From: Methylotenera sp.
Lineage (GTDB): Bacteria; Pseudomonadota; Gammaproteobacteria; Burkholderiales; Methylophilaceae
Reading direction: 5' to 3'
Length of the DNA stretch: 64,000 nt
NCBI GenBank assembly: GCA_021732365.1
Contig: JAKFVD010000017.1
Coordinates: 270,543 to 334,542 of the forward strand
Shown here: positions 29,754-58,001 of the stretch, one piece after another
Position numbering within the stretch: the stretch's first letter is position 1
How the letters are laid out: every line of letters starts with the position of its first letter
Position numbers and translations under genes: made by a program
Notes under the pieces: model-generated
Databases searched by the model: none
What the model was told of the DNA's origin: nothing
Seen by the model: the letters and a program-made list of their open reading frames with translations, nothing else

Positions 29754-30449
29754 TTAGTTAACGGTTTTTTTAGATGAAAAACGCTCTTCATCTAATTTAT
29801 CTTTTTGATTTTGCAATATATTTTCTAGCTGAACCCGTTTTAACTGGAAAAACTGCTCTTTACGCATCACGGCTTCGTACTGACTAGGCGTGTCATAAAT
29901 ATGTATTAATTCGGTGCCAAATTGATGCAATTTGCCATTTTTAACCGAGCAGGTATTCAATTCTTTGGTGGTATCTGCTAGGTTTTTTGATATGGTTTTG
30001 CGCTGATTATCGTTAAATTTTAGGTCGGCTAATGCTTGTGCATGCACACCTTTTAAATCGGTCAGACTGTTTTGGGTAGTGTCTAGCTTCGCCTGCGTTT
30101 CAGTCAGTTTAGCTTCAACCACAGTTTTCTCATCCATGGTTTTAGTTAACTCAATACTTAAGTTTTTAGCTTTGCGCTGTGATGATGCCAATGCCTTATT
30201 GGTTTTTTCTAACTCAGTATCTTTAGCCAATAACTGCTCTTGCAAGGCCTTTTTTTCTGTATCAAATTGGGTTTGCATGGCCGCTTTTTCGGCTTCCATA
30301 TCTTGCTTCATTTTTTGCATCATCAATGCCTGACGCCTTGCAGCTTTGTCTTTTTTTTCTGCTGCAATAGCCGATTGCGGCAGAAGCATGCCTGCCAATA
30401 ATGCCAATATAAATAGCCCAACAATTTTTTGCGCGACATTTAGTTTCAT
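29754..30449 (-). CDS. Periplasmic coiled-coil protein of unknown function
   Basis: Signal peptide ending QSAIA/AE, then about 170 aa of K/E/Q/A-rich heptad-like sequence and a short C-terminal globular part. Confidence 0.6.
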   Translation of the reverse strand: MKLNVAQKIVGLFILALLAGMLLPQSAIAAEKKDKAARRQALMMQKMKQDMEAEKAAMQTQFDTEKKALQEQLLAKDTELEKTNKALASSQRKAKNLSIELTKTMDEKTVVEAKLTETQAKLDTTQNSLTDLKGVHAQALADLKFNDNQRKTISKNLADTTKELNTCSVKNGKLHQFGTELIHIYDTPSQYEAVMRKEQFFQLKRVQLENILQNQKDKLDEERFSSKKTVN

Positions 30450-30460
30450 GATGGCCTCAA

Positions 30461-32149
30461 TTAAAACTTGGTGTTCAAATCAAGCAATAGCACATCGATA
30501 CCTAAAGGATCTAAGCCCCCACGCGGCGAAATCTCATCGGCGCTAAACCAACGTGCTTGCAGCCATGTATTTTTACCGATGCCGTAACTGCCGCCCAAAA
30601 TCCAGCCTTTTACATTAGTACCACGTTGGTAAAAGTCAGAATCGGTAAACGTATCCACCACTGAATCGGCCTCTAGGTGCTTATAAGCGGCAAACACTTG
30701 CCAGTCATGCAGTTTTTCGGTGGTGGGCATACCAACATCTAGCCTTACTTGATAAGCGTTTACTTCTTCATCAGGCACTAAGCCAGGCACAATGCCTGTT
30801 CTTCTGATGATTTCGTTACGGTCAAAACCAATATTGCGCACGTAATCACCAGTTAAGCTAATGTGTACAGGATCAAAAGCAGCAATATCCACCTTGCCCG
30901 TCAGGTTAAGCTCTCTAAATTTAGAGGCGTAACCAAATAGTGGGTCGCTGCCGAACTGTCCCCCATTTATGTCAAATGTTGAGTTACCTTTAGTGCGTGC
31001 GTTGGCAGATGTTGAATTAAAGGGCGCATTGGGCCCAAATTGACCCGCAGGGTTGGCAATACCCTCAACATTATCAAACTCATATAATGCCAATCCCACT
31101 TTGACAGACGATTTATTGGCAGAAGTCCATTTAATGCCCGTTTGCGCACCATACAACCATTTATCTTTGGCTCTGTTAAATTCCGAGCTTTCGATTTCAT
31201 CTATCGGAAACACGCCAGCTGTTGCAAAGCCAGACCAACGATCATTAAATTTGGGCTTATAACTAGCTGCAACACCATCAAACGCCAAATCAGGATCCCA
31301 CACCAAATCGGTTGAGAACCATGGGTTTTCAAAGCGACCACCCACCAAACTTAATTCTGGTGTGATATTGGTTTTTAAGAAAACACGGTCTAGATTCAAC
31401 TCATACTTACCACTCACGCCTTGTAATGTTTCGTTAGCAGAAATAGGGTCATTTATACTACCAGTGGTCATTCTGATGCCACCGTTTAACCAATCGTTTA
31501 CTTTGATATTAAATCCGAATCTTGCACGCACCCGCGCACGATTTCGGTCTTCGGTCGTGTTGTTTAAAACCACATTGTTTGCCGCAATAAAGTCATTCAG
31601 ATTGGGATTACCATCTGGAAATTGCGTAGTTTGGTATCTCAATCTTAAATCGCCCTCCCACTGCAAACGGTCAATCCAATCGGGCAAGCCTAAACGCTCA
31701 CCCGCTTTGAAATTCAGTTTCGCCATCACTTCTTTTTTAATTTCTTCTTTCATTTCATTTTTAACAATTTGCGGTACATATTGCACACGCACTTTTTCAT
31801 CGACGATTTTGCCGACCATTTTTTCATCGGCTGATAAATCAGCTGCATTTTGATTCGCCAGTGCAGTAGCAGTGTCTAATTCTTTGGCTTTTTCGGCATC
31901 GGCTGCGGCTTGTTTTAATAAGGCCTCTGCTTTCTCTTTGCTCAATACGCCTTCTTGCACCAATAAATTCACCAAATTAACAGTGGTTGAGCGTAACTGC
32001 TCTAGCGATTCGCGCTCACCTGCAACGGCGGTATTGGCGCTCATACTTAACGCTAAAATGAGCATCAAAACAACTTTAATTGGGTTGTTTTCGTGGCTCA
32101 AAAAATGAGCAGGCGTGTGCAAGCTTAAGTTTTTTACAGTTAATTTCAT
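30461..32149 (-). CDS. Porin-like outer-membrane beta-barrel with N-terminal coiled-coil extension
   Basis: Signal peptide ending NTAVA/GE. About 100-aa helical region (LVQEGVLSKEKAEALLKQAAADAEKAKE). Long beta-strand-rich region ending LLDLNTKF. Confidence 0.6.
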   Translation of the reverse strand: MKLTVKNLSLHTPAHFLSHENNPIKVVLMLILALSMSANTAVAGERESLEQLRSTTVNLVNLLVQEGVLSKEKAEALLKQAAADAEKAKELDTATALANQNAADLSADEKMVGKIVDEKVRVQYVPQIVKNEMKEEIKKEVMAKLNFKAGERLGLPDWIDRLQWEGDLRLRYQTTQFPDGNPNLNDFIAANNVVLNNTTEDRNRARVRARFGFNIKVNDWLNGGIRMTTGSINDPISANETLQGVSGKYELNLDRVFLKTNITPELSLVGGRFENPWFSTDLVWDPDLAFDGVAASYKPKFNDRWSGFATAGVFPIDEIESSEFNRAKDKWLYGAQTGIKWTSANKSSVKVGLALYEFDNVEGIANPAGQFGPNAPFNSTSANARTKGNSTFDINGGQFGSDPLFGYASKFRELNLTGKVDIAAFDPVHISLTGDYVRNIGFDRNEIIRRTGIVPGLVPDEEVNAYQVRLDVGMPTTEKLHDWQVFAAYKHLEADSVVDTFTDSDFYQRGTNVKGWILGGSYGIGKNTWLQARWFSADEISPRGGLDPLGIDVLLLDLNTKF

Positions 32150-32191
32150 GGTCGTTCTCGATTTAATTTCAATAAATTGTTTAATGTCTAT

Positions 32192-32217
32192 AAGTCTGTC
32201 AAATAGAAGTCTGTCAA
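32192..32217. repeat. 11-bp direct repeat AAGTCTGTCAA x2 upstream of the porin-like gene
   Basis: Identical copies at 32192-32202 and 32207-32217 (15-bp period), in the 75-bp tonB-porin spacer. Confidence 0.6.
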
Positions 32218-32224
32218 TTGCATG

Positions 32225-32953
32225 CTAGCCCACAGATCGCGCAGTCACTCTTAATTTCACGGGTTGCGGCATATCGCCTGGCGGCTTTTCAGCCAGTTTT
32301 GGCATCGCATCCAGCTGTTTTTTAATCAGAGTATCAATATCTGGCTTGCCGCTTGAGCTAGCCAGCTCAAAGCGCTCAATCGCACCATTTGACGCCACCC
32401 ACACTTTCACCACCACTTTATAAGCGCCACTTGCCAGTGTTTTATCTTTGCTCATGGCGTCTTCAATTTGGTTTTTAAGCAAATCGGTATACCAGGCAAA
32501 TTGATACTTATTTGGCCCACCGCCGATTGTGCTGCCTGTTTTAATGTCGCCGCCTTTGTAGTCGTTGTTTACCTGGCCAGATGCAAAAGCACTAGGGCCA
32601 TCGCCTGCGGCACCTTCCATTTTTAACTGCTCGGCAGGTGGCGTTTCTACTGGTTTTGGCTGCTCTACTTTTATCTCTTTAGGCGCATCTGGCTTTGGTT
32701 GCTCTTTTGGCGGCTCTTTGGGCGGCGGCGGAGGTGGCGGCGGTGGCGTATCAGGAATCAACTTAATGGTTGTCACCTTTTTTTTCGCTGGCGCGCCGCC
32801 AGACATCAAACTACTGATGCCATAACCAATACCACCCAACACAATTAAACCAACCAAAATGATTACAATACGTTTAAGCCAAACGCCAGTCTTCGATTCT
32901 GGCTCTTCGTCATCCAGCATTGGGTCGTAGCTTGTATTCATGTTTTCTTGCAT
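32225..32953 (-). CDS. tonB: TonB-family energy transducer
   Basis: N-terminal TM anchor. Proline-rich rod PPPPPPPPPKEPPKEQPKPDAPKE. C-terminal TonB-C-like YKVVVKVWVASNGAIERFELASSSGKPDIDTLI. Confidence 0.8.
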   Translation of the reverse strand: MQENMNTSYDPMLDDEEPESKTGVWLKRIVIILVGLIVLGGIGYGISSLMSGGAPAKKKVTTIKLIPDTPPPPPPPPPKEPPKEQPKPDAPKEIKVEQPKPVETPPAEQLKMEGAAGDGPSAFASGQVNNDYKGGDIKTGSTIGGGPNKYQFAWYTDLLKNQIEDAMSKDKTLASGAYKVVVKVWVASNGAIERFELASSSGKPDIDTLIKKQLDAMPKLAEKPPGDMPQPVKLRVTARSVG

Positions 32954-32954
32954 A

Positions 32955-33110
32955 TTAAGTAAATGACGTCTTTAAAATTCAAGTTTTTAAGCTAGGCAAG
33001 GCGCAAGCAAAAAATTGCGACGCCGCATATACTTGATATGTAAGAAGCAATTTTTTGTTTGCAACGCCGCATAGCGACAAAAATTGAGTTTTTAAAGATG
33101 TCATTTAAGT
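32955..33110. repeat. Structured ~150-bp intergenic element bounded by imperfect inverted repeats, with internal nested repeats
   Basis: Left arm AAATGACGTCTTTAAAA (32961-32977) matches the reverse complement of the right arm at 33091-33107 at 16 of 17 positions. Inside, GCAAGCAAAAAATTGC and GCAATTTTTTGTTTGC are near-complementary, and (G/A)ACGCCGCATA occurs twice. Confidence 0.6.
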
Positions 33111-33509
33111 GCCAATGCGCCCTGTTACCAAACCCACGTTTTCAATTTCCAGCTTATTCACCAAATCAATCACGCCGACTACGCCTGCATAAGGTGCTTT
33201 AGCATCGCCGCGAATCATCACGTTAAATTTAGGGTCAGCTGCTTTTGCGGCATTTAATTGGCTTTCTAGCTCAGTCATACTGACGCCTGCGCCATTAATC
33301 GTCAGGCCGCCACCTTGCTGCACTTGCACGATTTTAATTTCATGCTTTTCAGTGCTTGGCTTGTTGGATGGTTTAGGCAAATTCATGGTTAAGCCCTGCA
33401 CACCTGCTGTGGTCATCAGGATAAAAATCACCAGCAACACATAGGCCAAATCCAGCATCGGCGTGATGTTGATGGTGTCGTATGGCTGTGCATCATTTTG
33501 TACTTGCAT
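33105..33509 (-). CDS. exbD: ExbD/TolR family protein
   Basis: INITPMLDLAYVLLVIFILM TM signature. About 134 aa. Confidence 0.85.
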   Translation of the reverse strand: MQVQNDAQPYDTINITPMLDLAYVLLVIFILMTTAGVQGLTMNLPKPSNKPSTEKHEIKIVQVQQGGGLTINGAGVSMTELESQLNAAKAADPKFNVMIRGDAKAPYAGVVGVIDLVNKLEIENVGLVTGRIGT

Positions 33510-33553
33510 TTAAAGTCCTTGTGTTGGTTAAGTTATTTAAAAAGTTAACCTAT

Positions 33554-33964
33554 TTAATTGCTTAACTTTTTAGTCACTAAACCCACTTCAGTAATATCCA
33601 ATTTTTTGCAAATCTCTAATACTTCCGATACTTTTTCATAATTAGCTGTTGCATCACCTTTTAACACCACAGGTAATGCAGGGTTACCACTTTTAAATTC
33701 ACTTAACCGCTGCTCTAAAGTAATCATATCCACAGGGTAAGCGTCTAAATACACGCTGCCATCGCTGGTAATGGTAATTGCGCGTGTTTGCGGTTTGGCT
33801 AAACTGCCAGAGTTAACCGTTTGTGGCATATCTACCTTTACGCCTTGCACCGATGCGGTGGTCATGATGATAAAAATCACCAGCAACACGTACGCCAAAT
33901 CCAACATCGGCGTGATGTTAATCTCGTCGTATAGCTGGTTCTCTTCTTTTATACCCTCTGACAT
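33554..33964 (-). CDS. exbD: ExbD/TolR family protein (second paralogue)
   Basis: INITPMLDLAYVLLVIFIIM TM signature. 136 aa. Confidence 0.85.
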   Translation of the reverse strand: MSEGIKEENQLYDEINITPMLDLAYVLLVIFIIMTTASVQGVKVDMPQTVNSGSLAKPQTRAITITSDGSVYLDAYPVDMITLEQRLSEFKSGNPALPVVLKGDATANYEKVSEVLEICKKLDITEVGLVTKKLSN

Positions 33965-33967
33965 TTC

Positions 33968-35674
33968 TTATTCTTTACCAAATAACTCGGCAGAACGTGT
34001 TACAAACTCATCCACAAAAATCTGCATGGCAATGGTGATATTTTTGATGCGGCTAGCTAAATAGTTGTAGCCAAATAGCGCTGGAATCGCCACCGCCAAA
34101 CCGGCAACCGTGGCCAGCAAAGCGGCCGCAATACCTGGCGCAATGGCGTTTACGTTCACATCACCCGCAGCGGCAATCGCGGCAAAGGTAATCATCACGC
34201 CCACCACCGTGCCTAATAATCCCAAGAAAGGGCCGCCAGAAATCGCAATGGTCAGTAACACCATGCCCGCATTTTGGCGTTGTGTTTCGCGTACTAAATC
34301 CGCATCAATCGCTGCTTTAATGGCATCCATCGATGCGCCACTGAGTGATAGTTTTTCACCCTCATGCTGGCGCTTTTTAATCTCACGCAAACCTGCTTGA
34401 TACAACTTAAATAGATTGGAATGCGGATATTTGCCGCCTTTATCTAGTTCTAATAAATCGCTTGCATTCGATTTTTGAAAGCGTGCCAAGAACTTTTTAT
34501 TATCTTTATCGGTGCGTGATACCAGCATGGCTTTACTCCACATTACCCACACACTAATCGCAAACATCACCGCTAAAATGGCAATTACAATTTTGGCGTC
34601 AATCGTTAAGCTGTTAATTAAAATGCCTAAGTAATTGGCTTCACCCTCTTCCTCTTCACCATCCTCACCGCCCTCACCTTCAGCGATTTTTAACAGTTGA
34701 CTATCAACACTTTCGCTACTGGCGATTAGTTTAATAAAATCGGCACTGCGTGCGATGTTGGCAATTTCCAACTCATCTACTTCGCCCGTAAAACCCTCAC
34801 CAATTTTAATATCGGTGGCTGTATCTACCGTTGGCACATCGCCTGTGGCTACTTCTACACCGTTTAAATACAGTACGGCTTTACCAGCATTTAAGGTAAA
34901 CGCAATATGCTGCCAAACAGCAGGTTTTAGCTCGCCGCCCGTTAATACAATTTCGCCTATTTTTAGCGTTAAGTTTTGGGCAGCAATGGCTAAATCCACG
35001 TTATTTTCTTGGCTATACAAGCTTGCTGTTTGTGGCAAGGCGCTTGGCTTAACCCATGCAGACCAAGTAAATCCTGCGCTTGCATTGGTAGCGGCATTGG
35101 CCGGAATCACTAATGCCTCGCCTGTTAACACTGCACTTTCGCCAATTAAGCCGGCTTTTTGAGCCGTGATTTTGCCACTGGCAAATAGGCCTGATGCTGA
35201 ACTATCTTGCAGTAAGGCTTTGTCTGAAAACTGGAATTTAGCCACTAAGTGTGAATCCAGCATGATTTTTGGGTTGGCGGTGCTGGTGGCGTTTTCGTTA
35301 CCGTAATACAACCAAAAATGGGCATCTTTATCTGCGCTGCTAATTTGCGGTATTTGCACCCAAATAATGGCTAGCTCGTTTACCGCATCAAATTTTTCTA
35401 CAAAATATTTCAGCTCGGTTTTGTCATCTTGCGCAATAAAACGGATATCAGAGCCATCAATATTCACAGACGTAAAATCAAAATTACCTGAATGCAAACG
35501 CACCACTACAGAGGGCTGAACGATAGCCTGTGTAATACCAACGGCATTAATGCTGATTTTTTTACGCTGTGTCCAATCGGCATTCCATTCGGCAAATGCG
35601 CTTAATGAAAAAATTCCCATCACCAAACCTAGTAACACTAACCATTTCTTCATGCTGCTTCCTTTTGTATTCAA
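33968..35674 (-). CDS. exbB: MotA/TolQ/ExbB proton-channel protein with a ~330-aa N-terminal periplasmic domain (DUF2341-like plus LamG/concanavalin-like)
   Basis: Signal peptide (probable start MKKWLVLLG at 35653). A periplasmic beta-rich region is followed by an acidic linker EGEGGEDGEEEEGE. The C-terminal 3-TM MotA/ExbB core has GPFLGLLGTVVGVM. Confidence 0.8.
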   Translation of the reverse strand: MNTKGSSMKKWLVLLGLVMGIFSLSAFAEWNADWTQRKKISINAVGITQAIVQPSVVVRLHSGNFDFTSVNIDGSDIRFIAQDDKTELKYFVEKFDAVNELAIIWVQIPQISSADKDAHFWLYYGNENATSTANPKIMLDSHLVAKFQFSDKALLQDSSASGLFASGKITAQKAGLIGESAVLTGEALVIPANAATNASAGFTWSAWVKPSALPQTASLYSQENNVDLAIAAQNLTLKIGEIVLTGGELKPAVWQHIAFTLNAGKAVLYLNGVEVATGDVPTVDTATDIKIGEGFTGEVDELEIANIARSADFIKLIASSESVDSQLLKIAEGEGGEDGEEEEGEANYLGILINSLTIDAKIVIAILAVMFAISVWVMWSKAMLVSRTDKDNKKFLARFQKSNASDLLELDKGGKYPHSNLFKLYQAGLREIKKRQHEGEKLSLSGASMDAIKAAIDADLVRETQRQNAGMVLLTIAISGGPFLGLLGTVVGVMITFAAIAAAGDVNVNAIAPGIAAALLATVAGLAVAIPALFGYNYLASRIKNITIAMQIFVDEFVTRSAELFGKE

Positions 35675-35698
35675 TTTGTTTGCTTCTATATTTGATGA

Positions 35699-37369: not shown

Positions 37370-37393
37370 GAAAAAGAAATCCCAAGACTATCA

Positions 37394-37419
37394 GTGCAGA
37401 AATACCGCATTTTCTGCAC
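37394..37419 (-). promoter_or_regulatory. 9-bp-stem hairpin in the tpsA-tpsB spacer, 25-50 nt upstream of the tpsB start
   Basis: gtgcagaaa (37394-37402) pairs with tttctgcac (37411-37419), with an 8-nt loop. No immediate U-run follows on the minus strand. Confidence 0.4.
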
Positions 37420-37461
37420 CCTAAAATTAAGGCTTGATAGTAATAGGACTATGTGACGATA

Positions 37462-37529
37462 AAATTACAAATAACTACGGCTGTTACAATTTTTGCCCAC
37501 TTGTTACAAATGACTTTAGTTTGTTACAA
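37462..37529. promoter_or_regulatory. Phased array of the palindromic motif TTGTTACAA with a 20-bp period
   Basis: TGTTACAA occurs at 37482-37489, 37502-37509 and 37522-37529, exactly 20 bp apart. A degenerate ATTACAA sits at 37464-37470. The array starts 14 nt after the tpsA stop. Confidence 0.5.
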
Positions 37530-37542
37530 GTAGGCAAAATTA

Positions 37543-43500: not shown

Positions 43501-46500
43501 ACGCTCTGGTGCTGAATTTAAAACTAAATTTGCAGGGCCAAAATCATACAAATAATCTAAGCCATCTTGCTGCGTAAAACCAAACGGAATTAATGCATTT
43601 TGTGCCGAAACTGAGGTGACGCTGCCTGCATTTAGATTCAGTGTTTCACTGGCATTTAAAGCAATGGTGCCGAAAGGGGCTAACAATACGCCATTTTGGT
43701 TAATGGTTTCAGCATTAATATTTAACGTGCCGCCTGCAGATAACACTGCATCATAGCCACCTGTTGGGTTAATTTTGTTGATTGTCACCGTGCTACCGAT
43801 GCCACTTACAGTAATCGTGTAATCAGTCAGGGTAGTTGGATAAATTTGGCGCGCATTTAATTCAAGCGCACCTGTGGTTAGCAATGTGCCAGTAGGTGGT
43901 TGTCTAAATCCGCCAGCGGCTACATTTGGGTTACTAATACCCGTTAATCGAATATCACCTTGGCTATTAATAGCCGTGTTAGAAAAGCCTGATAAGGCAA
44001 ATGAACCTCTTAAATCAGCTAAATTCGCATTCACAGTAAATTGTGCGTTACCAGCCACTGGTGTCGTAGCAGTATATTCAGAGTTCGGTCTGATTGCTTG
44101 TGTTTCAAATTCATTTGCAAGTACAACATTTGGTGCTGTTAATGTGACCGATGAATCTGCCGTCGCTTCTATCACTCTGGCATTTAAACTAATACTGCGC
44201 GAAGTGGTTAAATTGACATCGCCAGTAAAACGTACACCGTATTCTGATTTTAATGCAACATCGCTAAAACCACCCTCAGTTATACGGTCAGCAGAAATTT
44301 TTGCAACGCCACTTGCGGCTGGTTGCACTGCATCACCCACATTTAAACTATCTGGCACAAATGTACCCGATTGCGCCACATCAATATACCAAAGTTGGTC
44401 TGGCGCATTACCTACATTAATATCTGATGGTAATGTTCCTGGGTAAGGGGACGTTATTAAACCCAGACTAGTAGTACCACCACGCGTTAAGCGCACATCT
44501 AAACCACCAGCTAAACCACCAGGTGATGATGCATTAAAAGTAGAGTCCAGCAATATGCCTTCACGCGCACTAACTGAAACTTCACCGCCATTACTGACAA
44601 TTCTGGTTGGCGTAATATTATTGGTATTACGAACATCTACTACAGCAGAAGTACCTGCTACATTAATTTCTGACCCAGTTTTTGCTACTACAAAGCCTTT
44701 GTTGGCTTCGATATTGACATGGCCACCATCATAAACAGTACCAATACGCTGATTCACATTGTTTGGCATCAACACAGTATGTCCGCTGGCATTTAACACC
44801 GAATTTTCGCCTAGCCAAATTGCTTGCGCGGCATTGTAACCATTATCATCGATTGCAGATGGTGATCCATTCATTACCAAAGAAATATCACCGCCCAAGG
44901 CTTGCAATGTGCCATCTACAACAATTTGATTATCCCATGCTGATAGTGAAATGCTTGGCACTACTGTGCCGCCAGTTACTGACTCTCTTGCGCCATTTGA
45001 ATCTACTTTAATATTAGCGTTGGCTTCAACAACAATACTGCCTCTGGACACACCACTAGCTAAAAATGGGTCTGACACTGTTGCCATTAATGCTGACTGC
45101 GTTGCTAAAGTTAATGTGGTTGAAGCGCGATTAAATGCGGGCAAAAGCGTTGGTGTGGCGAAATCATTGACGCGTGCGCCTGTTCTTTGTAACTGAAAAT
45201 TTCTATTTAACTGGTAATTTTTAGCGACAACACTGACATCGGTATTGCTTCGCACAATCACACCATCACGGCCTGTTAAATTAAAGCTGGCAAAACCGCT
45301 ATCCTGAAAAAATTCTGGTGTTGCTAAAAACTCACGTGCGTCGCCAAAACCACTATTGCCGATTGTAATAAAAGGCGCTGTAATAGATAAATCACCACCA
45401 GTACCCAGCGCAAAACCACGCAGTTCACCGTTAAGTTTTGGCGCAACATAAGTAAATGGGTTAAGCGCTGTGCCTTGATCTACTTGCGTAGCAATGCTAA
45501 TGCTACCTGCATTACCATTATCTAGTTCGGCTCTGTTACGCACATTATGCAAATAGCCACCACCAGAAACATCAACCAAACTACCCGTGCCCAACGTTAC
45601 TTCATCGGTAGAGCTAATACTGACACTGCCGCCATGCTCTTGAATGCGACCTGTTTGTAATACCCCATTGGTGTCATTAATCCAATTGCCAGAAACGTCT
45701 AACTTAACACCATTAGCAACGGTAATATTAGTATCGGCTGAGCCAACAACTCCCTCTATAAATTCGGTGGTTAATGCAATATCGCCGCTACGTGAAACGA
45801 TATTTTGATTCACTTGAATTTCACGCCCAGTGATTGCAATTTTTGCACCATTCACCAAGTTAACTGCACTATTCACTTGCACACTGCCACCAGTGGCAAT
45901 CGCAATATCTTCAAAACCACTGCGGCTTAACATGCCTGCATCAATTTCAACTGTATTAACACGGCTTGCTGGTAACGCAGAATCGGCAGCAAAGTCGCTA
46001 GATAACGCAACTGTGTTGCCAATATTAACGTTCTGCGCTGGCGTTAGTGTAGTTGGCAATATTAAGTTAATCGACAATTGCGCCATTATATTGTCGGCTT
46101 CACGTTGTCTTTCACCGTAAATTGCACCACCAGTTAACTGTCCATCTAATACAATTGTTGAAGCCTCAATCTGTAAAGCCACAGCTTGTGTTTGGCCTTC
46201 TTGTGCGTTTAGCACTCTGCCATTTATTAGTCTACTGCCTCTGCCTTCGGTGTAGCCTGCTTCTTGCAGTTCACGCACATTGCTTTCACCTAAAAAGTCC
46301 ACTATTAATGTATCGACAGGCGCATCACCTAATTTGTAGTTTAAGCCATCTGCTGCAACCACCCAGGTTTCTCGACTTATGCCCGTATTAAATCGTAATG
46401 AGCCGCCAGAAACATCCACTGTAGAACCCGTACGCTGAATAAAATCACCCTCAGATCGTAATATAACCGCGCCGCCATCGGCTAATTTTTCACCTATGGC

Positions 46501-48348
46501 ACGTGGTACTTGGCGCACAAATCCTGCTAAGTTAGCCACGCGAGGGTCTGGCGTATTGCGAATATCAAACATTACAAATTGCCGATTTAAAAATTCGTTT
46601 CGGTTGATCGGGTCATCGTTAAGATCGGTTTGCGTTAATAAAGCCTCTACAAAGTTACGGCCTAAATCCACCTCTACATTTTTTAAACCTGCTGCATCCA
46701 CCAATGTATCTTTACCCAAATAAAGTCGTGATTGGGTTTCTGGATTAGTGCTACCAATGCCTTGACCAAATAACTGCCCCGTTTGCGCTGTAATATTGAT
46801 AAAGCCGCCAGGCACGACGATTTTGGCGTTATCGTTAACAGTCACCTGTCTGCCAATTGCTTCTAGTACAGGTGGATTAAACACTTGGTCATCGGTAATG
46901 GTAGTACCTGTTACATTGACTGCTGATAACACTTTATTCAAATACGATTTATCGCCGCCTCTTGCTTCAGGCTCTCCGATTTGTGGTGATGAAAATAATT
47001 CATTCACCTTGTAAACAGCGGCTTTATCTTCAGCCAAGATAGTAGTCACACTATTTTCGCCAAAACTTAGTTGGCCGTTGCGGCTAGCCGTAATTAAGGT
47101 GTTAGGAATTGATTCATTGCCAACGGTTAATCGATTAGTAAATTGCGTGGCTATATTGTTTGCATCATAAACCAGCTCATCCGACTCTAAGGCTCTTGTA
47201 TCTCTTGCCAACAAACGTATTGAGCCTTTTTGGGTGGCTGATGAAGTCGCAGTAACACGTCCATTTTGATTCACCAAGTATGACGCCATAGTGACATTTC
47301 CGCGCTGGGCCAAAATACGGCCAGATGTGTCATTGGTTACTGTGCCAAATAGCTCTGTGGCTTGATCTTCAATCAATGGGTCAATTTCATCTGGTTTTAG
47401 TTGGTAAGAATCCACCTCTACCAATATGCCTGCTAAACCTTTAAGCGCTGAATCATCTGCATAATCAAATGTACCTGATGACACCTCATTCAGTTCTGGT
47501 GCGTAAGACAAATACACTTTTTCACCAGCCGCCAACGCCACTTGGCCTCCGTTAGTTTCAATACTGCCTTGGTTAATCACTTTTGGGGCAAATAATAAAA
47601 CTGAGCTACCTAAGGCTGCTTTAATTTGCGCATCTGGTTCTACTTGTACTAATACGGTTTGAAAGCCATTTGCATCACCGCCCCAGTTATAAGCGGCACG
47701 GTTAGTGCCTAAAAAAGCGGGTAATAAATGGCCTTGCTCACTTAAAAAATCGGTATCTTGCAATTCGAGTGCAGATGCCACCAAACCATTCACATTCACG
47801 CGTGCGCCGTTGGCAAACAAAATACCATTTTGGTTAATCAAATAAACGCTACCGTTTGGTGAGTTTAGTGCACCCTGAATAATACTTTTAGGGCCATTAA
47901 TACGGACCAAAGTAGCCGAACCCGCGCCACCTAAATGATTAAAGTTAACGGTGGCAGCAGAGCCAATATTAAAATTGGTACCCTGCAAAATACCTTTTTG
48001 AGTGATTTGATTAATATTTAATTGTTGCGCACTTATAGCTGCAGGCAGCAGTGCGCCTGCACCCGCCACGCCACCATTATCGCCTCTAAAAGTTCCACTG
48101 GTGATAGTTAAGCCAGTTGGCAAAGTGTTTGGTAGTACTGGGTCTGCAAATGAAACCTTAACCGACCCTACTAAGCTAATACCCAGTATTAAAATAGTTA
48201 AGCTGATTTTTTTAGATTGTTTAAGCGCTTTTTTAAATGCTTTTCCAGCGCCATTTTTGCCAGATTGATGCCCATGAACATGCTCACCTACCGCCATCCA
48301 AATACCGCGAGATGTGTTGTAAACAAGACGATAAATTCCAATATTCAT
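37543..48348 (-). CDS. Giant TpsA exoprotein (filamentous-haemagglutinin family adhesin, 3601 aa)
   Basis: ESPR-like extended signal peptide MNIGIYRLVYNTSRGIWMAVGE. TPS domain with SPNGSVYLINQNGILFANGARVNV. Thousands of residues of G/N/T/A/V-rich beta-helix repeats. No VENN motif was seen. Confidence 0.9.
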   Translation of the reverse strand: MNIGIYRLVYNTSRGIWMAVGEHVHGHQSGKNGAGKAFKKALKQSKKISLTILILGISLVGSVKVSFADPVLPNTLPTGLTITSGTFRGDNGGVAGAGALLPAAISAQQLNINQITQKGILQGTNFNIGSAATVNFNHLGGAGSATLVRINGPKSIIQGALNSPNGSVYLINQNGILFANGARVNVNGLVASALELQDTDFLSEQGHLLPAFLGTNRAAYNWGGDANGFQTVLVQVEPDAQIKAALGSSVLLFAPKVINQGSIETNGGQVALAAGEKVYLSYAPELNEVSSGTFDYADDSALKGLAGILVEVDSYQLKPDEIDPLIEDQATELFGTVTNDTSGRILAQRGNVTMASYLVNQNGRVTATSSATQKGSIRLLARDTRALESDELVYDANNIATQFTNRLTVGNESIPNTLITASRNGQLSFGENSVTTILAEDKAAVYKVNELFSSPQIGEPEARGGDKSYLNKVLSAVNVTGTTITDDQVFNPPVLEAIGRQVTVNDNAKIVVPGGFINITAQTGQLFGQGIGSTNPETQSRLYLGKDTLVDAAGLKNVEVDLGRNFVEALLTQTDLNDDPINRNEFLNRQFVMFDIRNTPDPRVANLAGFVRQVPRAIGEKLADGGAVILRSEGDFIQRTGSTVDVSGGSLRFNTGISRETWVVAADGLNYKLGDAPVDTLIVDFLGESNVRELQEAGYTEGRGSRLINGRVLNAQEGQTQAVALQIEASTIVLDGQLTGGAIYGERQREADNIMAQLSINLILPTTLTPAQNVNIGNTVALSSDFAADSALPASRVNTVEIDAGMLSRSGFEDIAIATGGSVQVNSAVNLVNGAKIAITGREIQVNQNIVSRSGDIALTTEFIEGVVGSADTNITVANGVKLDVSGNWINDTNGVLQTGRIQEHGGSVSISSTDEVTLGTGSLVDVSGGGYLHNVRNRAELDNGNAGSISIATQVDQGTALNPFTYVAPKLNGELRGFALGTGGDLSITAPFITIGNSGFGDAREFLATPEFFQDSGFASFNLTGRDGVIVRSNTDVSVVAKNYQLNRNFQLQRTGARVNDFATPTLLPAFNRASTTLTLATQSALMATVSDPFLASGVSRGSIVVEANANIKVDSNGARESVTGGTVVPSISLSAWDNQIVVDGTLQALGGDISLVMNGSPSAIDDNGYNAAQAIWLGENSVLNASGHTVLMPNNVNQRIGTVYDGGHVNIEANKGFVVAKTGSEINVAGTSAVVDVRNTNNITPTRIVSNGGEVSVSAREGILLDSTFNASSPGGLAGGLDVRLTRGGTTSLGLITSPYPGTLPSDINVGNAPDQLWYIDVAQSGTFVPDSLNVGDAVQPAASGVAKISADRITEGGFSDVALKSEYGVRFTGDVNLTTSRSISLNARVIEATADSSVTLTAPNVVLANEFETQAIRPNSEYTATTPVAGNAQFTVNANLADLRGSFALSGFSNTAINSQGDIRLTGISNPNVAAGGFRQPPTGTLLTTGALELNARQIYPTTLTDYTITVSGIGSTVTINKINPTGGYDAVLSAGGTLNINAETINQNGVLLAPFGTIALNASETLNLNAGSVTSVSAQNALIPFGFTQQDGLDYLYDFGPANLVLNSAPERVVSLNAPNVNQNEDSVIDISGSGDLFAYEWVPGLGGSSDVLAADANQQAFGQNATNTWVILPNNNQTFASFDPQYWQGSNIKAGDAVYISGAPGVAAGYYTLLPARYALLPGAVLVSAVSGAQDRTAGLTSTLVNGSTLVSGHLAAYTSNGYTQTARTAGFVVRSGADAYRLAQYNTTTASAFFSGNTQAQRTVDAGRLSIAATESLVLRGTLTAITQQGGSGSEVDIAAPNLLVVGAGEQTGQVDLNGINYLAIDETTLANFNAASLLLGGTRSQGNVDVVSGEVRLNGNANVTGPEVILAATDTVRLDSGATLTGRGTGAAARNITIGNVANSAGVLDGDGALVRVSGGAAATLTRTNVNADRGDLMIDTGATVTADGSVLLDGSRNTSLQGDIEFAEGAALAFSSGRISLGAPVNGESVADGLWLQDEQLAEFTTAGSLSLNSQSTIDVYGSATFGNNGFDLTLQSAGLAGYQNNGQTATITAQNLTIGNNNNAVFAPATALSNGTVPTLGTGNLVIQAETVNLGNNTVRLAGYDQIDINASREIVAAGSTARPTAAATPNQLLADNNLTLSAPRLTTASRADYAINAGNLNAGTLKVQGSVGAQPTNLANPQSQGTRLTLSGDKVILAGGTTQASNITDRHAAAIVVKGGQVTVSATGAAATDNVTLEDGASIDVTGSLFTINDQTVALPAGSVALQSANGDIDVQTGALVNVSAAGNGDAGRFSASAVNGDVRLAGTIKAVESGKKAIASVDAKSISNISQVLAALGNFAAEQIFRVREGDITIGASDKITANNVKVNVDQGAITVNGTIDASGNKGGNIELFAQDNVTINRGAKLLAKGLADTNSTAGSLGNGGDVIISSDTGIVRTVASDANGLSGALIDVSGDQVGAVRGENGDVIFRAARTGAGAGNGVNVDNQAPAAVRGARRVLIEAVKQYTNADFGNQANITINTAQQTTIRTDTNNFAAAIAPTIASFSPTRDGLAAIIAPSVDIFSTGDLNVGVANNFTVQNNWVLGNSTTAANLLVNSGGILNLRAANNLNINGNIDYEQFSVTSNILTPRTGSWSYRLVAGADRTAANIETTLAGAGNISVRDGQFVRTGTGFIHAAAGNNLNLGTLNGAGAAIYTTGLPDTTNPVDFIGLSFAQDREIYADGGGDINIALGGNLAGSAREAQTQTVTDWVFHTAQNSTTQNTQARWWNRYDTVTTGLPANRTAGFTNGLATLGGGDVNIQTAGQVSNLQIAAANNGRLGGPLNEAPNLANFEELGGGDVNLQANGAVSQVLLYTGKGDINAQSGSDLSATLALMDGQASLVATGNITVTGASNPTITSSESRTRLANFYTYTEDAAVNAVSLAGNIEVRGNTEAYPSNLFAATPNGNINIESVTLFPSRTGNATLLAGNNINIDGLVISEVDPNTLPFITTNFLGVARPQISTFQGGAAHTAGLLHINDTEPVRIYALNDIAFNNEVTTGGVSTFNIAAPLITPKAAIISAGNDVVDANVVLQNIRPTDISVIEAGNNIYYNDAGQSGGTLQISDGGIQVTGPGRLHVIANKDIDLGTSDGIRSLGNLYNPFLPTQGADLLVQAGAAAVADFEGVLNAYVDPSSIYSSIYLPQLTQLIRTRTGDSSIDSTQALTAFRQLDKESQTGFINSVYFAELRAGGRDALDVNNSSFGDYSRSQRAILTMFPTFAQPETTQSLLASAGSIMNGFERIGNEEVSNPGDLSLFYSQIRSESGGAIEILVPGGLINAGLAVASDIAKPDSELGIVTLRGGDLLGFVRDDFLVNQSRVFTLGGSDLLLYSALGSIDAGRGAKTSSSTPPPLITIQNGQVTFDFSGAVTGSGIAALTSTGGVPGRASLFAPYGEINAGEAGIRSAGDIDLGARVIIGADNIKVGGTSTGLPVASTGAAGLTAPASSDPTAQNKQGSEIAESTKTDGNKLAALPSLITVEVISLGDELAPTNPKLKPCAPDDKLKKDCQP

Positions 48349-48493: not shown

Positions 48494-48521
48494 AGCCCTT
48501 CCCTAGTTTCAGGGAAGGGCT
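48494..48521 (-). terminator. Rho-independent terminator downstream of the 524-aa secreted-protein gene, insulating the tpsA promoter region
   Basis: agcccttccct (48494-48504) pairs with agggaagggct (48511-48521). On the minus strand it is followed by TTTGTGCT. Confidence 0.65.
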
Positions 48522-53373: not shown

Positions 53374-53512
53374 TTTATAAGTTGGAAGCAGTTTGGCCTT
53401 GTTTAGTGACAGCGTGATTAAGGTTAGATGGCAGTTTTTTTACAGTTTTGTAACAAAAGCCTAGTCATGTGCATCACTAAAAACTGTCATATTGATAGTG
53501 AATAATAGGCAG

Positions 53513-55904: not shown

Positions 55905-55915
55905 GCTGTCAATTT

Positions 55916-57988: not shown

Positions 57989-58001
57989 GCTTAACTTTCC
58001 T

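What the first reader, a model, noticed from the sequence alone, without database searches (positions are those of the whole stretch)
29754..48348. Two-partner secretion pair co-oriented and contiguous with a Ton-like energiser, a porin-like OMP and a coiled-coil protein, with no TonB-dependent receptor
On the minus strand the gene order is tpsA (3601 aa), tpsB, an ExbB with a ~330-aa periplasmic DUF2341/LamG-like domain, ExbD, ExbD, TonB, a porin-like barrel with a coiled-coil N-terminus, and a secreted coiled-coil protein. The tpsB stop and the exbB start are only 24-45 nt apart and I see no terminator between them. The next terminator-like signals lie beyond the block. Type Vb secretion is normally considered independent of inner-membrane energy. 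Ton systems normally partner with plug-containing TonB-dependent transporters, and none is present here. A proton-motive-force transducer wired to a giant adhesin and its transporter, or to the porin-like barrel, would be an undescribed functional coupling. Possible roles are adhesin release, retraction, maturation or surface anchoring. The whole block also sits inside the eps/PEP-CTERM region.
Basis: partly seen in the sequence, partly recalled or inferred. Interest (0 to 1): 0.7.

Follow-up and report, generated by a model that had tools for sequence, protein, structure and literature searches.

The report
Giant adhesin locked to Ton-like motor
A giant secreted fibre protein and its outer-membrane exporter sit in one gene block with a dedicated proton-driven Tol/Ton-like motor, a stalked porin-like protein and a periplasmic coiled-coil protein; the same block recurs across several bacterial phyla and is the uncharacterised pdtA-pdtB-exbB2-exbD2-tonB4-PA0696-PA0697 locus of Pseudomonas aeruginosa, so the linkage is real and already recorded, but its mechanism is unknown.

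Summary
On the minus strand of a Methylotenera window lie, in order, tpsA (3601 aa), tpsB, a DUF2341-LamG-ExbB/TolQ fusion, two exbD genes, a TonB/TolA-like gene, a Porin_5 barrel with a helical stalk, and a signal-peptide coiled-coil protein. No TonB-dependent receptor is present.

The linkage is not chance. In 80 genomes anchored on the ExbB fusion, 67 of 69 informative loci carry TpsA or TpsB. Porin_5 was found in 59 of 60, TonB in 58 of 60 and ExbD in 60 of 60. In the reverse scan, anchored on the conserved TpsA C-terminus, 35 of 41 loci have the ExbB fusion.

Pseudomonas members match PA0690-PA0701 gene for gene. There, pdtB, exbB2D2, tonB4 and PA0696-PA0701 are reported as one transcription unit, and the Ton part is called "still uncharacterized". 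So the gene association is known; the function is not.

New anatomy found here: a near-universal strand-like motif at the end of TpsA's C-terminal tail; Porin_5 modelled as a plug-less porin-type barrel, nearest to the stalked attachment porin OmpM1; and a motor at least as Tol-like as Ton-like.

My best reading is one trans-envelope apparatus that uses proton-motive force on the fibre. It is a new member of a known but unexplained kind.

The parts
37543..48348 (-). tpsA: 3601-aa TPS exoprotein, probably a long beta-helical fibre
   Evidence: ORF. ESPR and DUF3739. TIGR01901 TPS domain, 43 bits against a cut-off of 29.1. N-terminus homologous to the solved TPS domains of EtpA, HxuA and HMW1.
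47764..47979 (-). TPS (NPNG-type) secretion domain of TpsA, aa 124-195
37546..38331 (-). Conserved C-terminal region of TpsA, aa ~3340-3601, including DUF3739 (aa 3416-3524). It is the best-conserved part of all TpsAs in these clusters.
   Evidence: phmmer domain hits, alignment A2, coordinates.
37615..37650 (-). Terminal strand-like motif LITVEVISLGDE (aa 3567-3578). A low-complexity linker precedes it. A tail follows that holds the only two cysteines of the protein (C3589, C3599). It is a candidate docking strand (inference).
   Evidence: The motif was seen, by regex or by eye, in nearly all of 121 TpsA C-termini. Cysteine positions.
37370..37542 (-). tpsA-tpsB intergenic region: TTGTAACA three times at exact 20-nt spacing, a fourth degenerate copy, then a 9-bp hairpin. 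Possibly an internal promoter, operator or attenuator.
   Evidence: By analogy, P. aeruginosa has a separate promoter between pdtA and pdtB.
35699..37369 (-). tpsB: Omp85-family TPS transporter
   Evidence: ShlB, POTRA_2 and Omp85. There is no conserved motif N-terminal to POTRA1.
33968..35653 (-). exbB/tolQ-like proton-channel subunit. It has a cleavable-looking signal peptide and a ~310-aa periplasmic DUF2341 + LamG domain.
   Evidence: Pfam. Below the equivalog cut-offs for both TolQ and ExbB, with TolQ the better match. PDB best hits are TolQ at 6e-18 and ExbB at 1e-13. Start codon.
33554..33964 (-). exbD/tolR-like subunit 1, with the transmembrane Asp present
33105..33509 (-). exbD/tolR-like subunit 2. 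The second copy is present in 18 of 60 related loci.
32954..33104 (.). 145-nt palindromic insertion between exbD2 and tonB. It is strain-specific and a possible attenuator.
32225..32953 (-). TonB/TolA-like arm: transmembrane helix without His, poly-proline spacer, alpha-beta-beta-alpha-beta C-terminal domain
   Evidence: TonB_2, 36 bits. AlphaFold2 C-terminal domain at pLDDT 82-90. Foldseek top hits are TolA domain III, HasB, TonB and FusB C-terminal domains.
30461..32149 (-). Porin_5 outer-membrane protein: N-terminal helical stalk (aa ~44-150), then a porin-type barrel of about 16 strands with no plug
   Evidence: Pfam E=8e-162. AlphaFold2 model, pLDDT 65.7 overall, with the barrel mostly 70-94. 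Foldseek hits: OmpM1, MOMP, PorB, OprB, DcaP, OmpF/C. Conserved stalk motifs.
29754..30449 (-). CC231: signal-peptide coiled-coil protein with a conserved ~65-aa C-terminal domain. It is the PA0697 counterpart.
   Evidence: No Pfam, NCBIfam or PDB relative. It lies next to Porin_5 in 95 of 111 loci by HMM.
48494..48521 (.). Strong bidirectional terminator hairpin that closes the upstream unit, just before tpsA

Best explanation
The block is the Methylotenera member of a widely conserved envelope module. Its parts are: a giant TPS fibre (TpsA with a DUF3739 C-terminus) and its TpsB; a dedicated proton-driven 5:2-type motor (DUF2341-LamG-ExbB/TolQ plus one or two ExbD/TolR); a TonB/TolA-like arm; a stalked porin-like outer-membrane protein (Porin_5); and a periplasmic coiled-coil protein. 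The Pseudomonas aeruginosa member is pdtA-(phdA)-pdtB-exbB2-exbD2-tonB4-PA0696-PA0697.

I think these proteins work as one trans-envelope apparatus. TpsB exports the fibre. The motor sits in the inner membrane with five LamG-type domains in the periplasm. Its TolA/TonB-like C-terminal domain captures a short strand by beta-augmentation, as TonB does with TonB boxes and TolA does with the TolB N-terminus. The captured strand would be either the conserved 'VRVxYVP' segment in the stalk of Porin_5 or the conserved C-terminal tail motif of TpsA (LITVEVISLGDE). Proton-motive force would then be used to hold, tension, release or finish export of the surface fibre.

Shown: gene content, domain folds, conservation of the linkage, and co-transcription in Pseudomonas (from the literature). 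Inferred: every physical contact, the periplasmic location of the TpsA tail, and the direction of the work done.
For: Linkage:
- Of 69 genome loci with at least 2.5 kb upstream of the ExbB fusion, 67 carry TpsA or TpsB. ExbD was in 60 of 60, TonB in 58 of 60 and Porin_5 in 59 of 60.
- CC231 lies next to Porin_5 in 95 of 111 loci.
- In the reverse scan from the TpsA C-terminus, 35 of 41 loci have the ExbB fusion and 36 of 41 have Porin_5.
- Gene order varies (tpsA-tpsB-motor, tpsB-tpsA-motor, tpsB-motor-porin-CC-tpsA), yet linkage and strand are kept. This argues for selection rather than history.
- The taxonomic span runs from Methylophilaceae to Pseudomonas, Sphingomonadales, Verrucomicrobiota, Desulfobacterota and Nitrospirae.

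Pseudomonas equivalence:
- Pseudomonas loci L071 and L073 have identical domain architectures, plus Phd/DUF772, YbjN, a PpiC isomerase and a LysR regulator in the order published for PA0690-PA0701.
- One promoter is reported to transcribe phdA, pdtB, exbB2D2, tonB4 and PA0696-PA0701.

Structure:
- The TonB-like C-terminal domain is modelled at pLDDT 82-90 and matches TolAIII and TonB C-terminal domains, including entries solved with bound partner peptides.
- Porin_5 is modelled as a plug-less porin-type barrel with a helical N-terminal stalk. Its best match is the stalked attachment porin OmpM1.
- The TpsA tail motif, tethered by a low-complexity linker, is near-universal.
- No TonB-dependent receptor family recurs in these neighbourhoods.
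Against: - No experiment or complex prediction links any two of these proteins.
- TPS secretion has been reconstituted without external energy (review PMC5422565), so a motor is not needed for export as such.
- PA0695 (tonB4) and PA0696 transposon mutants showed no change in VreI-induced zebrafish lethality. This says nothing about PdtA secretion.
- The TonB-like transmembrane helix lacks the His of the SHLS motif.
- The Porin_5 stalk is modelled with low confidence.
- About 10% of DUF3739 TpsA genes have no motor within 10 kb, and two motor loci show no TPS gene.
- The genome sample is the 80 relatives closest to the window's ExbB, not the whole DUF2341-ExbB family.
Confidence: 0.6

Rival explanations
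1. Energised uptake system with Hxu-like logic. The fibre is an extracellular capture or scaffold device. The real client of the motor is Porin_5, acting as a non-canonical TonB-dependent import channel for a polymer or nutrient such as phosphate-containing polymers, nucleic acid or polysaccharide. The periplasmic LamG domains of ExbB would receive the cargo.
For: - A precedent exists for TPS working with Ton: HxuA/HxuB with the TonB-dependent receptor HxuC (PMC5422565).
- The Pseudomonas cluster belongs to the PhoB/sigma-VreI phosphate-starvation regulon, next to an alkaline phosphatase and its secretion system.
- Methylophilus loci insert a secreted nuclease (LTD + Exo_endo_phos + RTX) and a 5'-nucleotidase-RTX between tpsA and exbB.
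- The Porin_5 barrel also resembles the substrate-specific porins OprB and OprO.
- Porin_5 directly follows tonB in most loci.
- LamG folds often bind carbohydrates (established knowledge).
Against: - Porin_5 has no plug domain and no N-terminal TonB box in the usual position. An open porin-type barrel needs no energy for small solutes.
- The model does not explain the invariant C-terminal tail of a 3000-4000 aa fibre, or why fibre and motor are co-inherited across phyla.
- In the window, the neighbours are exopolysaccharide genes, not phosphate genes.
Confidence: 0.2
2. Envelope tether or Tol-Pal-like stabiliser. The TolQRA-like motor, the stalked porin and the coiled-coil protein hold the outer membrane to the cell body where a very large fibre and exopolysaccharide are exported. 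There is no direct action on TpsA.
For: - The ExbB and ExbD parts match TolQ and TolR better than ExbB and ExbD.
- The arm's C-terminal domain is closest to TolA domain III.
- The best structural match of Porin_5 is OmpM1, an outer-membrane attachment porin with a coiled-coil stalk.
- Polysaccharide export genes (Wza-like, Wzz-like, XrtB/Eps) recur downstream in several lineages.
Against: - No TolB, Pal or peptidoglycan-binding domain was found in the module.
- A generic stabiliser should not track one TpsA subfamily (the DUF3739 type) so tightly, or in both directions.
- The conserved TpsA tail motif is left without a role.
Confidence: 0.12
3. Co-regulated neighbours only. The Ton-like genes serve a receptor encoded elsewhere, and they travel with the TPS genes merely as part of a mobile or co-regulated cassette.
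For: - TonB systems often serve many unlinked receptors (established knowledge).
- Some TpsA genes of this type lack a nearby motor, and two motor loci lack a TPS gene.
- The PA0695 mutant was as virulent as wild type.
Against: - The linkage survives across phyla, across three gene orders and under different regulons.
- The ExbB fusion, Porin_5 and CC231 are specific to this context in both scans.
- No TonB-dependent receptor family recurs nearby.
Confidence: 0.08

Closest known systems
Pseudomonas aeruginosa PAO1 locus PA0690-PA0699: pdtA, phdA, pdtB, exbB2, exbD2, tonB4, PA0696, PA0697, PA0698, PA0699 (sigma-VreI/PhoB regulon)
   Same: Same components in the same order and on the same strand: TpsA, TpsB, ExbB, ExbD, TonB, putative porin, signal-peptide helical protein. 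Fluorescens-group Pseudomonas loci reproduce the published gene list. They carry the same Pfam architectures as the window: DUF3739; ShlB/POTRA_2; DUF2341 + LamG + MotA_ExbB; ExbD; TonB_2; Porin_5. The Ton part is unexplained there too.
   Different: The window has two exbD genes. It has no phd/DUF772 gene between tpsA and tpsB. It has no YbjN or LysR gene, and no VreAIR (PUMA3) or Pho context. Instead it lies inside an XrtB/PEP-CTERM exopolysaccharide locus. I did not compare PAO1 sequences directly. The equivalence rests on other Pseudomonas genomes plus the published gene table.
HxuA/HxuB/HxuC of Haemophilus influenzae (TPS plus a TonB-dependent receptor)
   Same: A TPS exoprotein that functions together with a TonB-energised outer-membrane step, encoded in one operon (PMC5422565).
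   Different: Hxu has a canonical plug-containing TonB-dependent receptor and uses the housekeeping TonB. Here there is no such receptor. The module has its own ExbB/ExbD/TonB set, a plug-less porin-like barrel and a fibre three to four times larger.
Tol-Pal system (TolQ-TolR-TolA-TolB-Pal-CpoB)
   Same: The motor subunits score best against TolQ and TolR. The arm has a proline-rich or extended spacer and a TolAIII-like C-terminal domain. A periplasmic coiled-coil protein accompanies it, as CpoB does (CpoB comparison from my own knowledge).
   Different: No TolB or Pal is present. ExbB carries a large DUF2341-LamG periplasmic domain. All scores fall below the TolQ, TolR and ExbB equivalog cut-offs. 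The module is linked to a TPS pair.
Myxococcus Agl-Glt gliding machinery (TolQR-like motor, TonB-like GltG/GltJ, outer-membrane barrels, surface adhesin CglB); comparison from my own knowledge
   Same: A Tol/Exb-type motor with TonB-like arms that transmits force through the periplasm to outer-membrane barrels carrying an adhesin. No nutrient receptor is involved. The only tool trace is a weak GltJ hit on the proline-rich region.
   Different: Apart from the motor family, there is no homology between components. No motility genes are present. Here the adhesin is a TPS fibre.
FhaB/FhaC and CdiA/CdiB (TPS proteins whose C-terminal part is held in the periplasm); from my own knowledge
   Same: A giant beta-helical TpsA with a functionally special C-terminal region. 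This gives a precedent for a periplasmic C-terminus that controls release or delivery.
   Different: Their C-termini are not DUF3739 and lack the terminal motif. No dedicated motor is linked to them. Periplasmic retention is untested for this family.
Stalked porins OmpM1 (Veillonella parvula) and DcaP (Acinetobacter baumannii)
   Same: Best and good Foldseek matches respectively (E=4e-16 and 1.6e-09) to the Porin_5 model. Both combine a porin-type barrel with an N-terminal coiled-coil extension into the periplasm (their stalks are from my own knowledge).
   Different: Sequence identity is 13-16%. Porin_5 has no SLH domain. The stalk is modelled at low confidence. Trimer formation is untested.

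Membership tests
Two-partner secretion (type Vb) | TpsA with an N-terminal TPS domain (NPNG-type) behind a Sec signal | tested here: met
   TIGR01901 at 43 bits against a cut-off of 29.1. ESPR signal. phmmer hits to the solved TPS domains of EtpA (9e-15), HxuA and HMW1.
Two-partner secretion (type Vb) | TpsB of the Omp85 family with POTRA domains and a ShlB-type barrel | tested here: met
   ShlB at 81 bits, POTRA_2 at 63 bits and Omp85 at 38 bits, all above their cut-offs.
Two-partner secretion (type Vb) | Secretion independent of inner-membrane energy | not testable with these tools
   This is the point in question. Only genetics and biochemistry can answer it. The review states that no energy source is known.
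Ton system (ExbB-ExbD-TonB plus a TonB-dependent transporter) | MotA/TolQ/ExbB-family channel and ExbD/TolR with a transmembrane Asp | tested here: met
   MotA_ExbB at 98 bits. ExbD at 98 and 87 bits. Asp present in 'TPMLDLAYVLL'. The ExbB equivalog score is 76 against a cut-off of 206, so the protein is not an orthologue of ExbB proper.
Ton system (ExbB-ExbD-TonB plus a TonB-dependent transporter) | TonB: N-terminal transmembrane anchor, proline-rich spacer, alpha/beta C-terminal domain | tested here: met
   TonB_2 at 36 bits against a cut-off of 22. AlphaFold2 model: transmembrane helix 21-50, disordered poly-proline region, C-terminal domain alpha-beta-beta-alpha-beta at pLDDT 82-90. Foldseek hits to TolAIII, HasB, TonB and FusB C-terminal domains, best E=1.4e-3.
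Ton system (ExbB-ExbD-TonB plus a TonB-dependent transporter) | SHLS-type His in the TonB/TolA transmembrane helix | tested here: not met
   There is no His in the transmembrane segment of the window protein or in the family consensus. W25 and R28 are invariant instead.
Ton system (ExbB-ExbD-TonB plus a TonB-dependent transporter) | Plug-containing 22-strand transporter with an N-terminal TonB box as client | tested here: not met
   None in the block, none among the window ORFs scanned, and no recurrent family of that kind in 80 + 80 related loci. One isolated candidate in L017 lies behind an opposite-strand gene. A distal client elsewhere in the genome cannot be excluded.
Tol-Pal system | TolQ, TolR and TolA orthologues | tested here: inconclusive
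   TolQ and TolR are the best NCBIfam and PDB matches but fall below the equivalog cut-offs (135 against 221; 83 against 127). The C-terminal domain is closest to TolAIII.
Tol-Pal system | TolB and Pal encoded with the motor | tested here: not met
   There is no TolB beta-propeller or OmpA-like lipoprotein in the block or among recurrent neighbours.
pdtA-pdtB-exbB2-exbD2-tonB4-PA0696-PA0697 type cluster (Pseudomonas) | Same seven protein families, co-oriented and contiguous | tested here: met
   The window matches Pseudomonas loci L071 and L073 domain for domain. Those loci match the published PA0690-PA0701 gene table, including Phd/transposase-like, YbjN, PpiC and LysR.
pdtA-pdtB-exbB2-exbD2-tonB4-PA0696-PA0697 type cluster (Pseudomonas) | Direct sequence orthology to the PAO1 proteins | not tested
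   No PAO1 sequence was available in the collections I could still search. The equivalence goes through other Pseudomonas genomes.
pdtA-pdtB-exbB2-exbD2-tonB4-PA0696-PA0697 type cluster (Pseudomonas) | Control by phosphate starvation (PhoB) and the PUMA3 sigma factor | tested here: not met
   There is no VreAIR-like gene near the block. The neighbours are EpsA and the XrtB eps genes. Pho boxes were not searched. ECF sigma, FecR and STN-TonB_2 genes do accompany the module in other lineages.
General trimeric porins / stalked porins (OmpM1, DcaP type) | Porin-type barrel of about 16 strands without a plug, with a periplasmic coiled-coil N-terminus | tested here: inconclusive
   The AlphaFold2 model shows about 16 long strands with barrel pLDDT mostly 70-94. 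The stalk is below 50. Foldseek to OmpM1 gives E=4e-16 with TM-score 0.72-0.74 normalised to the target. The oligomeric state is untested.

The most novel reading that the evidence does not exclude
The conserved module is a proton-motive-force-energised branch of type V secretion, or equivalently a fibre-handling machine. A dedicated Tol/Ton-like motor grips the conserved C-terminal tail of a TPS fibre, directly or through the stalked Porin_5 and the coiled-coil protein. It then uses inner-membrane energy to complete export, anchor, tension, retract or release a micrometre-scale adhesin. That would overturn the view that type Vb systems work without envelope energy. It would also give TonB/TolA-type arms a client that is neither a plug-containing receptor nor TolB-Pal.
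Probability: 0.35. Interest if true: 0.85.

Novelty: new member of a known kind. Interest (0 to 1): 0.58.

Why it matters
Type V secretion is described as needing no envelope energy, and TonB/TolA-type motors as serving plug-containing receptors or Tol-Pal. This block belongs to a module that pairs the two across several phyla. The ExbB fusion alone has hundreds of 50%-identity clusters. The module includes a phosphate-starvation virulence locus of P. aeruginosa whose Ton part has been left "uncharacterized" since 2009.

The comparative data make the question directly testable in a genetically tractable organism. They define a seven-protein core, two candidate docking strands, a stalked plug-less barrel in place of a receptor, and a motor that is a third lineage beside Ton and Tol.

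If the motor acts on the fibre, this is a new use of proton-motive force at the cell surface. It would bear on biofilm matrix mechanics in methylotrophs and on virulence in Pseudomonas. If it does not, the module still identifies an unstudied energised outer-membrane protein family (Porin_5).

Tried and rejected
I fused the TonB C-terminal domain to the TpsA tail by a linker, with TonB homologues as the alignment. No docking evidence could be obtained.
2. Literature searches for DUF2341, Porin_5/PF16930, DUF3739/PF12545, and 'two-partner secretion' with ExbB and TonB found no mechanistic work. One 2025 paper lists DUF2341 as an unexplained appendage of ExbB-like proteins. A Burkholderia colicin-M paper that matched all the terms was irrelevant. 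The Sphingobium 'tonB4' is unrelated in name only.
3. I looked for a hidden TonB-dependent receptor. Clustering all neighbours gave no recurrent long barrel family. The long recurrent ORFs turned out to be TPR proteins, a TPR-glycosyltransferase, nucleases and Wzz-like proteins.
4. Sequence searches of Porin_5, CC231 and the TonB-like protein against solved structures gave nothing useful.
5. I tested a cysteine co-occurrence idea. TpsA tails with a Cys pair occur only where CC231 keeps its conserved Cys (21 of 21; 0 of 12 where it is lost). But 34 loci have the CC231 Cys without tail cysteines, and the Cys-less group is essentially one clade. I treat this as a weak lead only.
6. My first greedy gene caller produced antisense artefacts in high-GC loci. 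The statistics therefore rest on stop-to-stop ORFs scored with phmmer and HMMs.
7. The idea that tpsB is missing in 'tpsA-exbB' loci was rejected. The metagenome loci show tpsB upstream of tpsA.
Full report
**What is in the window.**
- TpsA (48348..37543, 3601 aa) has an extended signal peptide, a TPS domain (TIGR01901, 43 bits against a cut-off of 29.1) and a C-terminal DUF3739. Its N-terminus is homologous to the solved TPS domains of EtpA, HxuA and HMW1.
- TpsB (37369..35699) has ShlB and POTRA_2.
- The next gene encodes DUF2341 + Laminin_G_3 + MotA_ExbB. Database homologues are 560-561 aa and a Shine-Dalgarno sequence precedes the ATG at 35653. The gap to the tpsB stop is therefore 45 nt, with no terminator.
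- Two ExbD genes follow, then a TonB_2 protein, a Porin_5 protein (E=8e-162) and a 231-aa signal-peptide coiled-coil protein with no family match.

Homologue names identify the organism as Methylotenera. The block lies between EpsA on one side and the pepcterm CAAX protease, EpsL, EpsD, EpsE, EpsF, EpsG, exosortase XrtB and EpsI on the other. No TonB-dependent receptor was found in the block or among the other window ORFs I scanned.

**Operon signals.** A 12-bp-stem terminator (48494..48521) closes the upstream gene just before tpsA. Terminator-like hits inside the block are weak, intragenic and at chance level: 27 found against 22.6 expected.

- The 173-nt tpsA-tpsB gap carries TTGTAACA three times at exact 20-nt spacing, a degenerate fourth copy, and a 9-bp hairpin.
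- The exbD2-tonB gap is a 145-nt palindrome (fold -43.5 kcal/mol, z=-5.4). It is absent at the same junction in a 98%-identical relative and in M. versatilis, so it is a recent insertion.

**Is the linkage more than chance?** I collected diverse full-length relatives of the ExbB fusion. There are 514 clusters at 50% identity with E<=1e-30. I aligned 48 of them and scanned one genome per species. The 80 best loci span:
- Betaproteobacteria (Methylophilaceae, Gallionellaceae, Rhodocyclaceae, Burkholderiales, Nitrosomonadaceae);
- Gammaproteobacteria (Pseudomonas, Methylococcales, Luteibacter and others);
- Alphaproteobacteria (Sphingomonadales, Bradyrhizobium, Methylocella, Rhizomicrobium);
- Verrucomicrobiota, Desulfobacterota and Nitrospirae.

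I scored six-frame ORFs with the window proteins.

| Condition on the locus | Component | Present |
|---|---|---|
| at least 2.5 kb upstream of ExbB | TpsA or TpsB | 67 of 69 |
| at least 6 kb downstream of ExbB | ExbD | 60 of 60 |
| at least 6 kb downstream of ExbB | two ExbD | 18 of 60 |
| at least 6 kb downstream of ExbB | TonB | 58 of 60 |
| at least 6 kb downstream of ExbB | Porin_5 | 59 of 60 |

An HMM finds the coiled-coil protein next to Porin_5 in 95 of 111 loci.

For the reverse test I aligned the conserved TpsA C-terminus and scanned metagenomes. Of 41 loci with at least 6 kb downstream of TpsA, 35 have the ExbB fusion and 36 have Porin_5.

Gene order differs between lineages: tpsA-tpsB-motor as here, tpsB-tpsA-motor, and tpsB-motor-porin-CC-tpsA. 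Linkage and strand are kept in all three. M. versatilis 301 has tpsA directly before exbB. The metagenome loci show that tpsB then lies upstream of tpsA.

**It is already on record in Pseudomonas.** The P. aeruginosa literature lists PA0690 pdtA, PA0691 phdA, PA0692 pdtB, PA0693 exbB2, PA0694 exbD2, PA0695 tonB4, PA0696 'putative outer membrane porin', PA0697 (signal peptide, helical), PA0698 YbjN-family, PA0699 PpiC isomerase and PA0701 LysR. All are induced by sigma-VreI and phosphate starvation. [quoted passage not shown]
- Llamas et al. [quoted passage not shown] They also found PA0695 and PA0696 mutants unchanged in a zebrafish assay (PMC2729926).
- Quesada et al. 2016 state that PpdtA transcribes only pdtA. 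PphdA transcribes phdA, pdtB, exbB2D2, tonB4 and PA0696-PA0701 (PMC4971064).
- My Pseudomonas loci L071 and L073 reproduce this list gene for gene, including the Phd/DUF772 gene, YbjN, PpiC and LysR. They carry the same Pfam architectures as the window.
- The 2017 TPS review lists PdtA but does not mention the Ton genes. It restates that no energy source powers type V secretion (PMC5422565).

**Anatomy that bears on mechanism.**
1. The motor is a lineage of its own.
   - The membrane part of the ExbB fusion matches TolQ better than ExbB: NCBIfam 135 against 76 bits, and PDB 6e-18 against 1e-13. The ExbDs match TolR better than ExbD. All scores are below the equivalog cut-offs.
   - The N-terminus looks like a cleavable signal peptide. 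If so, five DUF2341-LamG domains per pentamer would sit in the periplasm (inference).
2. The arm has a transmembrane helix without the SHLS histidine and a poly-proline spacer. Its C-terminal domain is modelled at pLDDT 82-90. The best structural matches are TolA domain III, HasB, TonB and FusB C-terminal domains. Those domains bind partners by adding a strand to their sheet (established knowledge).
3. Porin_5 is modelled (pLDDT 65.7 overall, barrel mostly 70-94) as a plug-less barrel of about 16 strands behind a helical N-terminal stalk.
   - The best matches are the stalked attachment porin OmpM1 (E=4e-16), then MOMP, PorB, OprB, DcaP and OmpF/C.
   - The stalk carries two conserved segments: a tip helix (L..LR.TT..LI..LV..GVL) and a strand-like VRVxYVPxxVKxxIR.
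4. The last ~240 residues are the best-conserved part of every TpsA in these clusters.
   - After beta-helix-like repeats comes a low-complexity linker, then a short motif: hydrophobic-L-T/S-V-E/D-V-L/I-G-F/L-G-D/E. Here it is LITVEVISLGDE, aa 3567-3578.
   - The motif is often the very end of the protein. In other cases a CxnC tail follows it, and in Burkholderiales an Arg/Lys run precedes it.
   - In the window, the tail holds the only two cysteines of 3601 residues.
5. TpsB shows no conserved motif ahead of POTRA1.
6. Recurrent accessories:
   - a PpiC-type isomerase after the coiled-coil gene (here the EpsD isomerase lies three genes downstream);
   - an 820-860 aa TPR protein;
   - ECF sigma / FecR / STN-TonB_2 (PUMA3-like) sets;
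   - polysaccharide export genes;
   - in Methylophilus, a secreted nuclease and a 5'-nucleotidase inserted between tpsA and exbB.
   No TonB-dependent receptor family recurs.

**Most likely mechanism.** The seven proteins cover every layer of the envelope and are co-inherited in both directions. I therefore read them as one apparatus: a TPS fibre whose handling at the surface is coupled to a dedicated proton-driven motor.

The arm most plausibly captures a strand. The candidates are the Porin_5 stalk segment, since Porin_5 directly follows tonB in most loci, and the TpsA terminal motif, which would be periplasmic if this family behaves like FhaB or CdiA (own knowledge).

The work done could be anchoring, tensioning, retraction, release or completion of export. 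I put about 0.6 on a real functional coupling in one apparatus, and much less on any one contact.

The main rival is an Hxu-like uptake logic with Porin_5 as the energised channel. The phosphate-starvation regulon in Pseudomonas and the nuclease and nucleotidase genes in Methylophilus favour it. Its weak points are the absence of a plug and the unexplained fibre tail. A Tol-Pal/OmpM-like tether and mere co-regulation are less likely.

**Limits.**
- No interaction was tested.
- The Porin_5 stalk is low-confidence.
- PAO1 sequences were not compared directly.
- The genome sample is the 80 relatives closest to the window's ExbB.
- About a tenth of DUF3739 TpsA genes have no motor within 10 kb. 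Two motor loci show no TPS gene.

**Verdict.** The claim that the pairing is undescribed is wrong at the level of gene association and right at the level of mechanism. The block is a new member, in an exopolysaccharide context and with a duplicated ExbD, of a known but functionally unexplained cluster type.

Noticed in passing
window 32954-33104: A 145-nt imperfect palindrome sits between exbD2 and tonB (arms 32960-32988/33079-33107 and 33003-33018/33047-33062). Its RNA fold is -43.5 kcal/mol, z=-5.4. It is unique in the window. It is absent at the same junction in a 98%-identical relative (L084) and in M. versatilis (L002). It looks like a recent MITE/REP-like insertion inside the operon and may attenuate tonB-porin-CC231 expression.
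   Followed up: partly
window 37460-37542 (tpsA-tpsB gap) and 53448-53455: TTGTAACA occurs three times at exactly 20-nt spacing, with a fourth degenerate copy, followed by a 9-bp hairpin just before tpsB. Another copy lies in the epsA upstream region. The array could be a regulator-binding site or internal promoter. This parallels the separate promoter between pdtA and pdtB in P. aeruginosa. It is conserved only in the 98% relative and not in L085.
   Followed up: partly
L005 2982-9233, L006 2987-9240, L162 12166-18419: In Methylophilus-type loci, two secreted phosphate-scavenging enzymes sit between tpsA and exbB: LTD + Exo_endo_phos + RTX nuclease, and 5'-nucleotidase + RTX. This echoes the phosphate-starvation regulon of the Pseudomonas homologue.
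   Followed up: partly
L092 16653-19124, L097 16104-18671; same position in L100, L111, L118, L119, L158: A large periplasmic-type TPR protein (~800-860 aa) directly follows the coiled-coil gene in one group of loci. It may be an additional module component.
   Followed up: partly
L035 1110-1655, L049 1290-2261, L052 4528-5304: ECF sigma factor, FecR-type anti-sigma and an STN + TonB_2 'VreA-like' protein lie upstream of the module in several Alpha- and other proteobacteria. PUMA3-type control is therefore not confined to Pseudomonas.
   Followed up: partly
TpsA tails and CC231 C-terminal domains across L002-L161: TpsA tails with a Cys pair occur only in loci whose coiled-coil protein keeps its conserved single Cys (21 of 21; 0 of 12 where it is lost). 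The Burkholderiales group with an 'RRRRR-LLLEFLGFG' tail has a distinct Cys-less CC231 variant. This may reflect co-evolution or a disulfide link, but phylogeny confounds it.
   Followed up: partly
window 48580-50154: The gene just upstream of the tpsA terminator encodes a 524-aa signal-peptide protein. Its only match is a weak PstS-type phosphate-binding domain (PBP_like_2, E=5e-6), with no NCBIfam family. A weak relative follows a TpsA gene in L144.
   Followed up: no
window 55419-63527: A type II secretion / type IV pilus-like gene set lies upstream of the eps region on the same strand. It comprises a pseudopilin, a 690-aa secretin, a T2SSE ATPase and a T2SSF platform protein.
   Followed up: no
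window 9706-12090 and 15876-17369: Two large ORFs inside the eps cluster (794 aa and 497 aa) have no Pfam or NCBIfam match at the thresholds used.
   Followed up: no
L017 16400-18697: This is the only TonB-dependent-receptor-like ORF I saw near any module (765 aa, judged by eye from its sequence). It lies about 1 kb downstream, behind an opposite-strand regulator gene. It does not recur in other loci.
   Followed up: no
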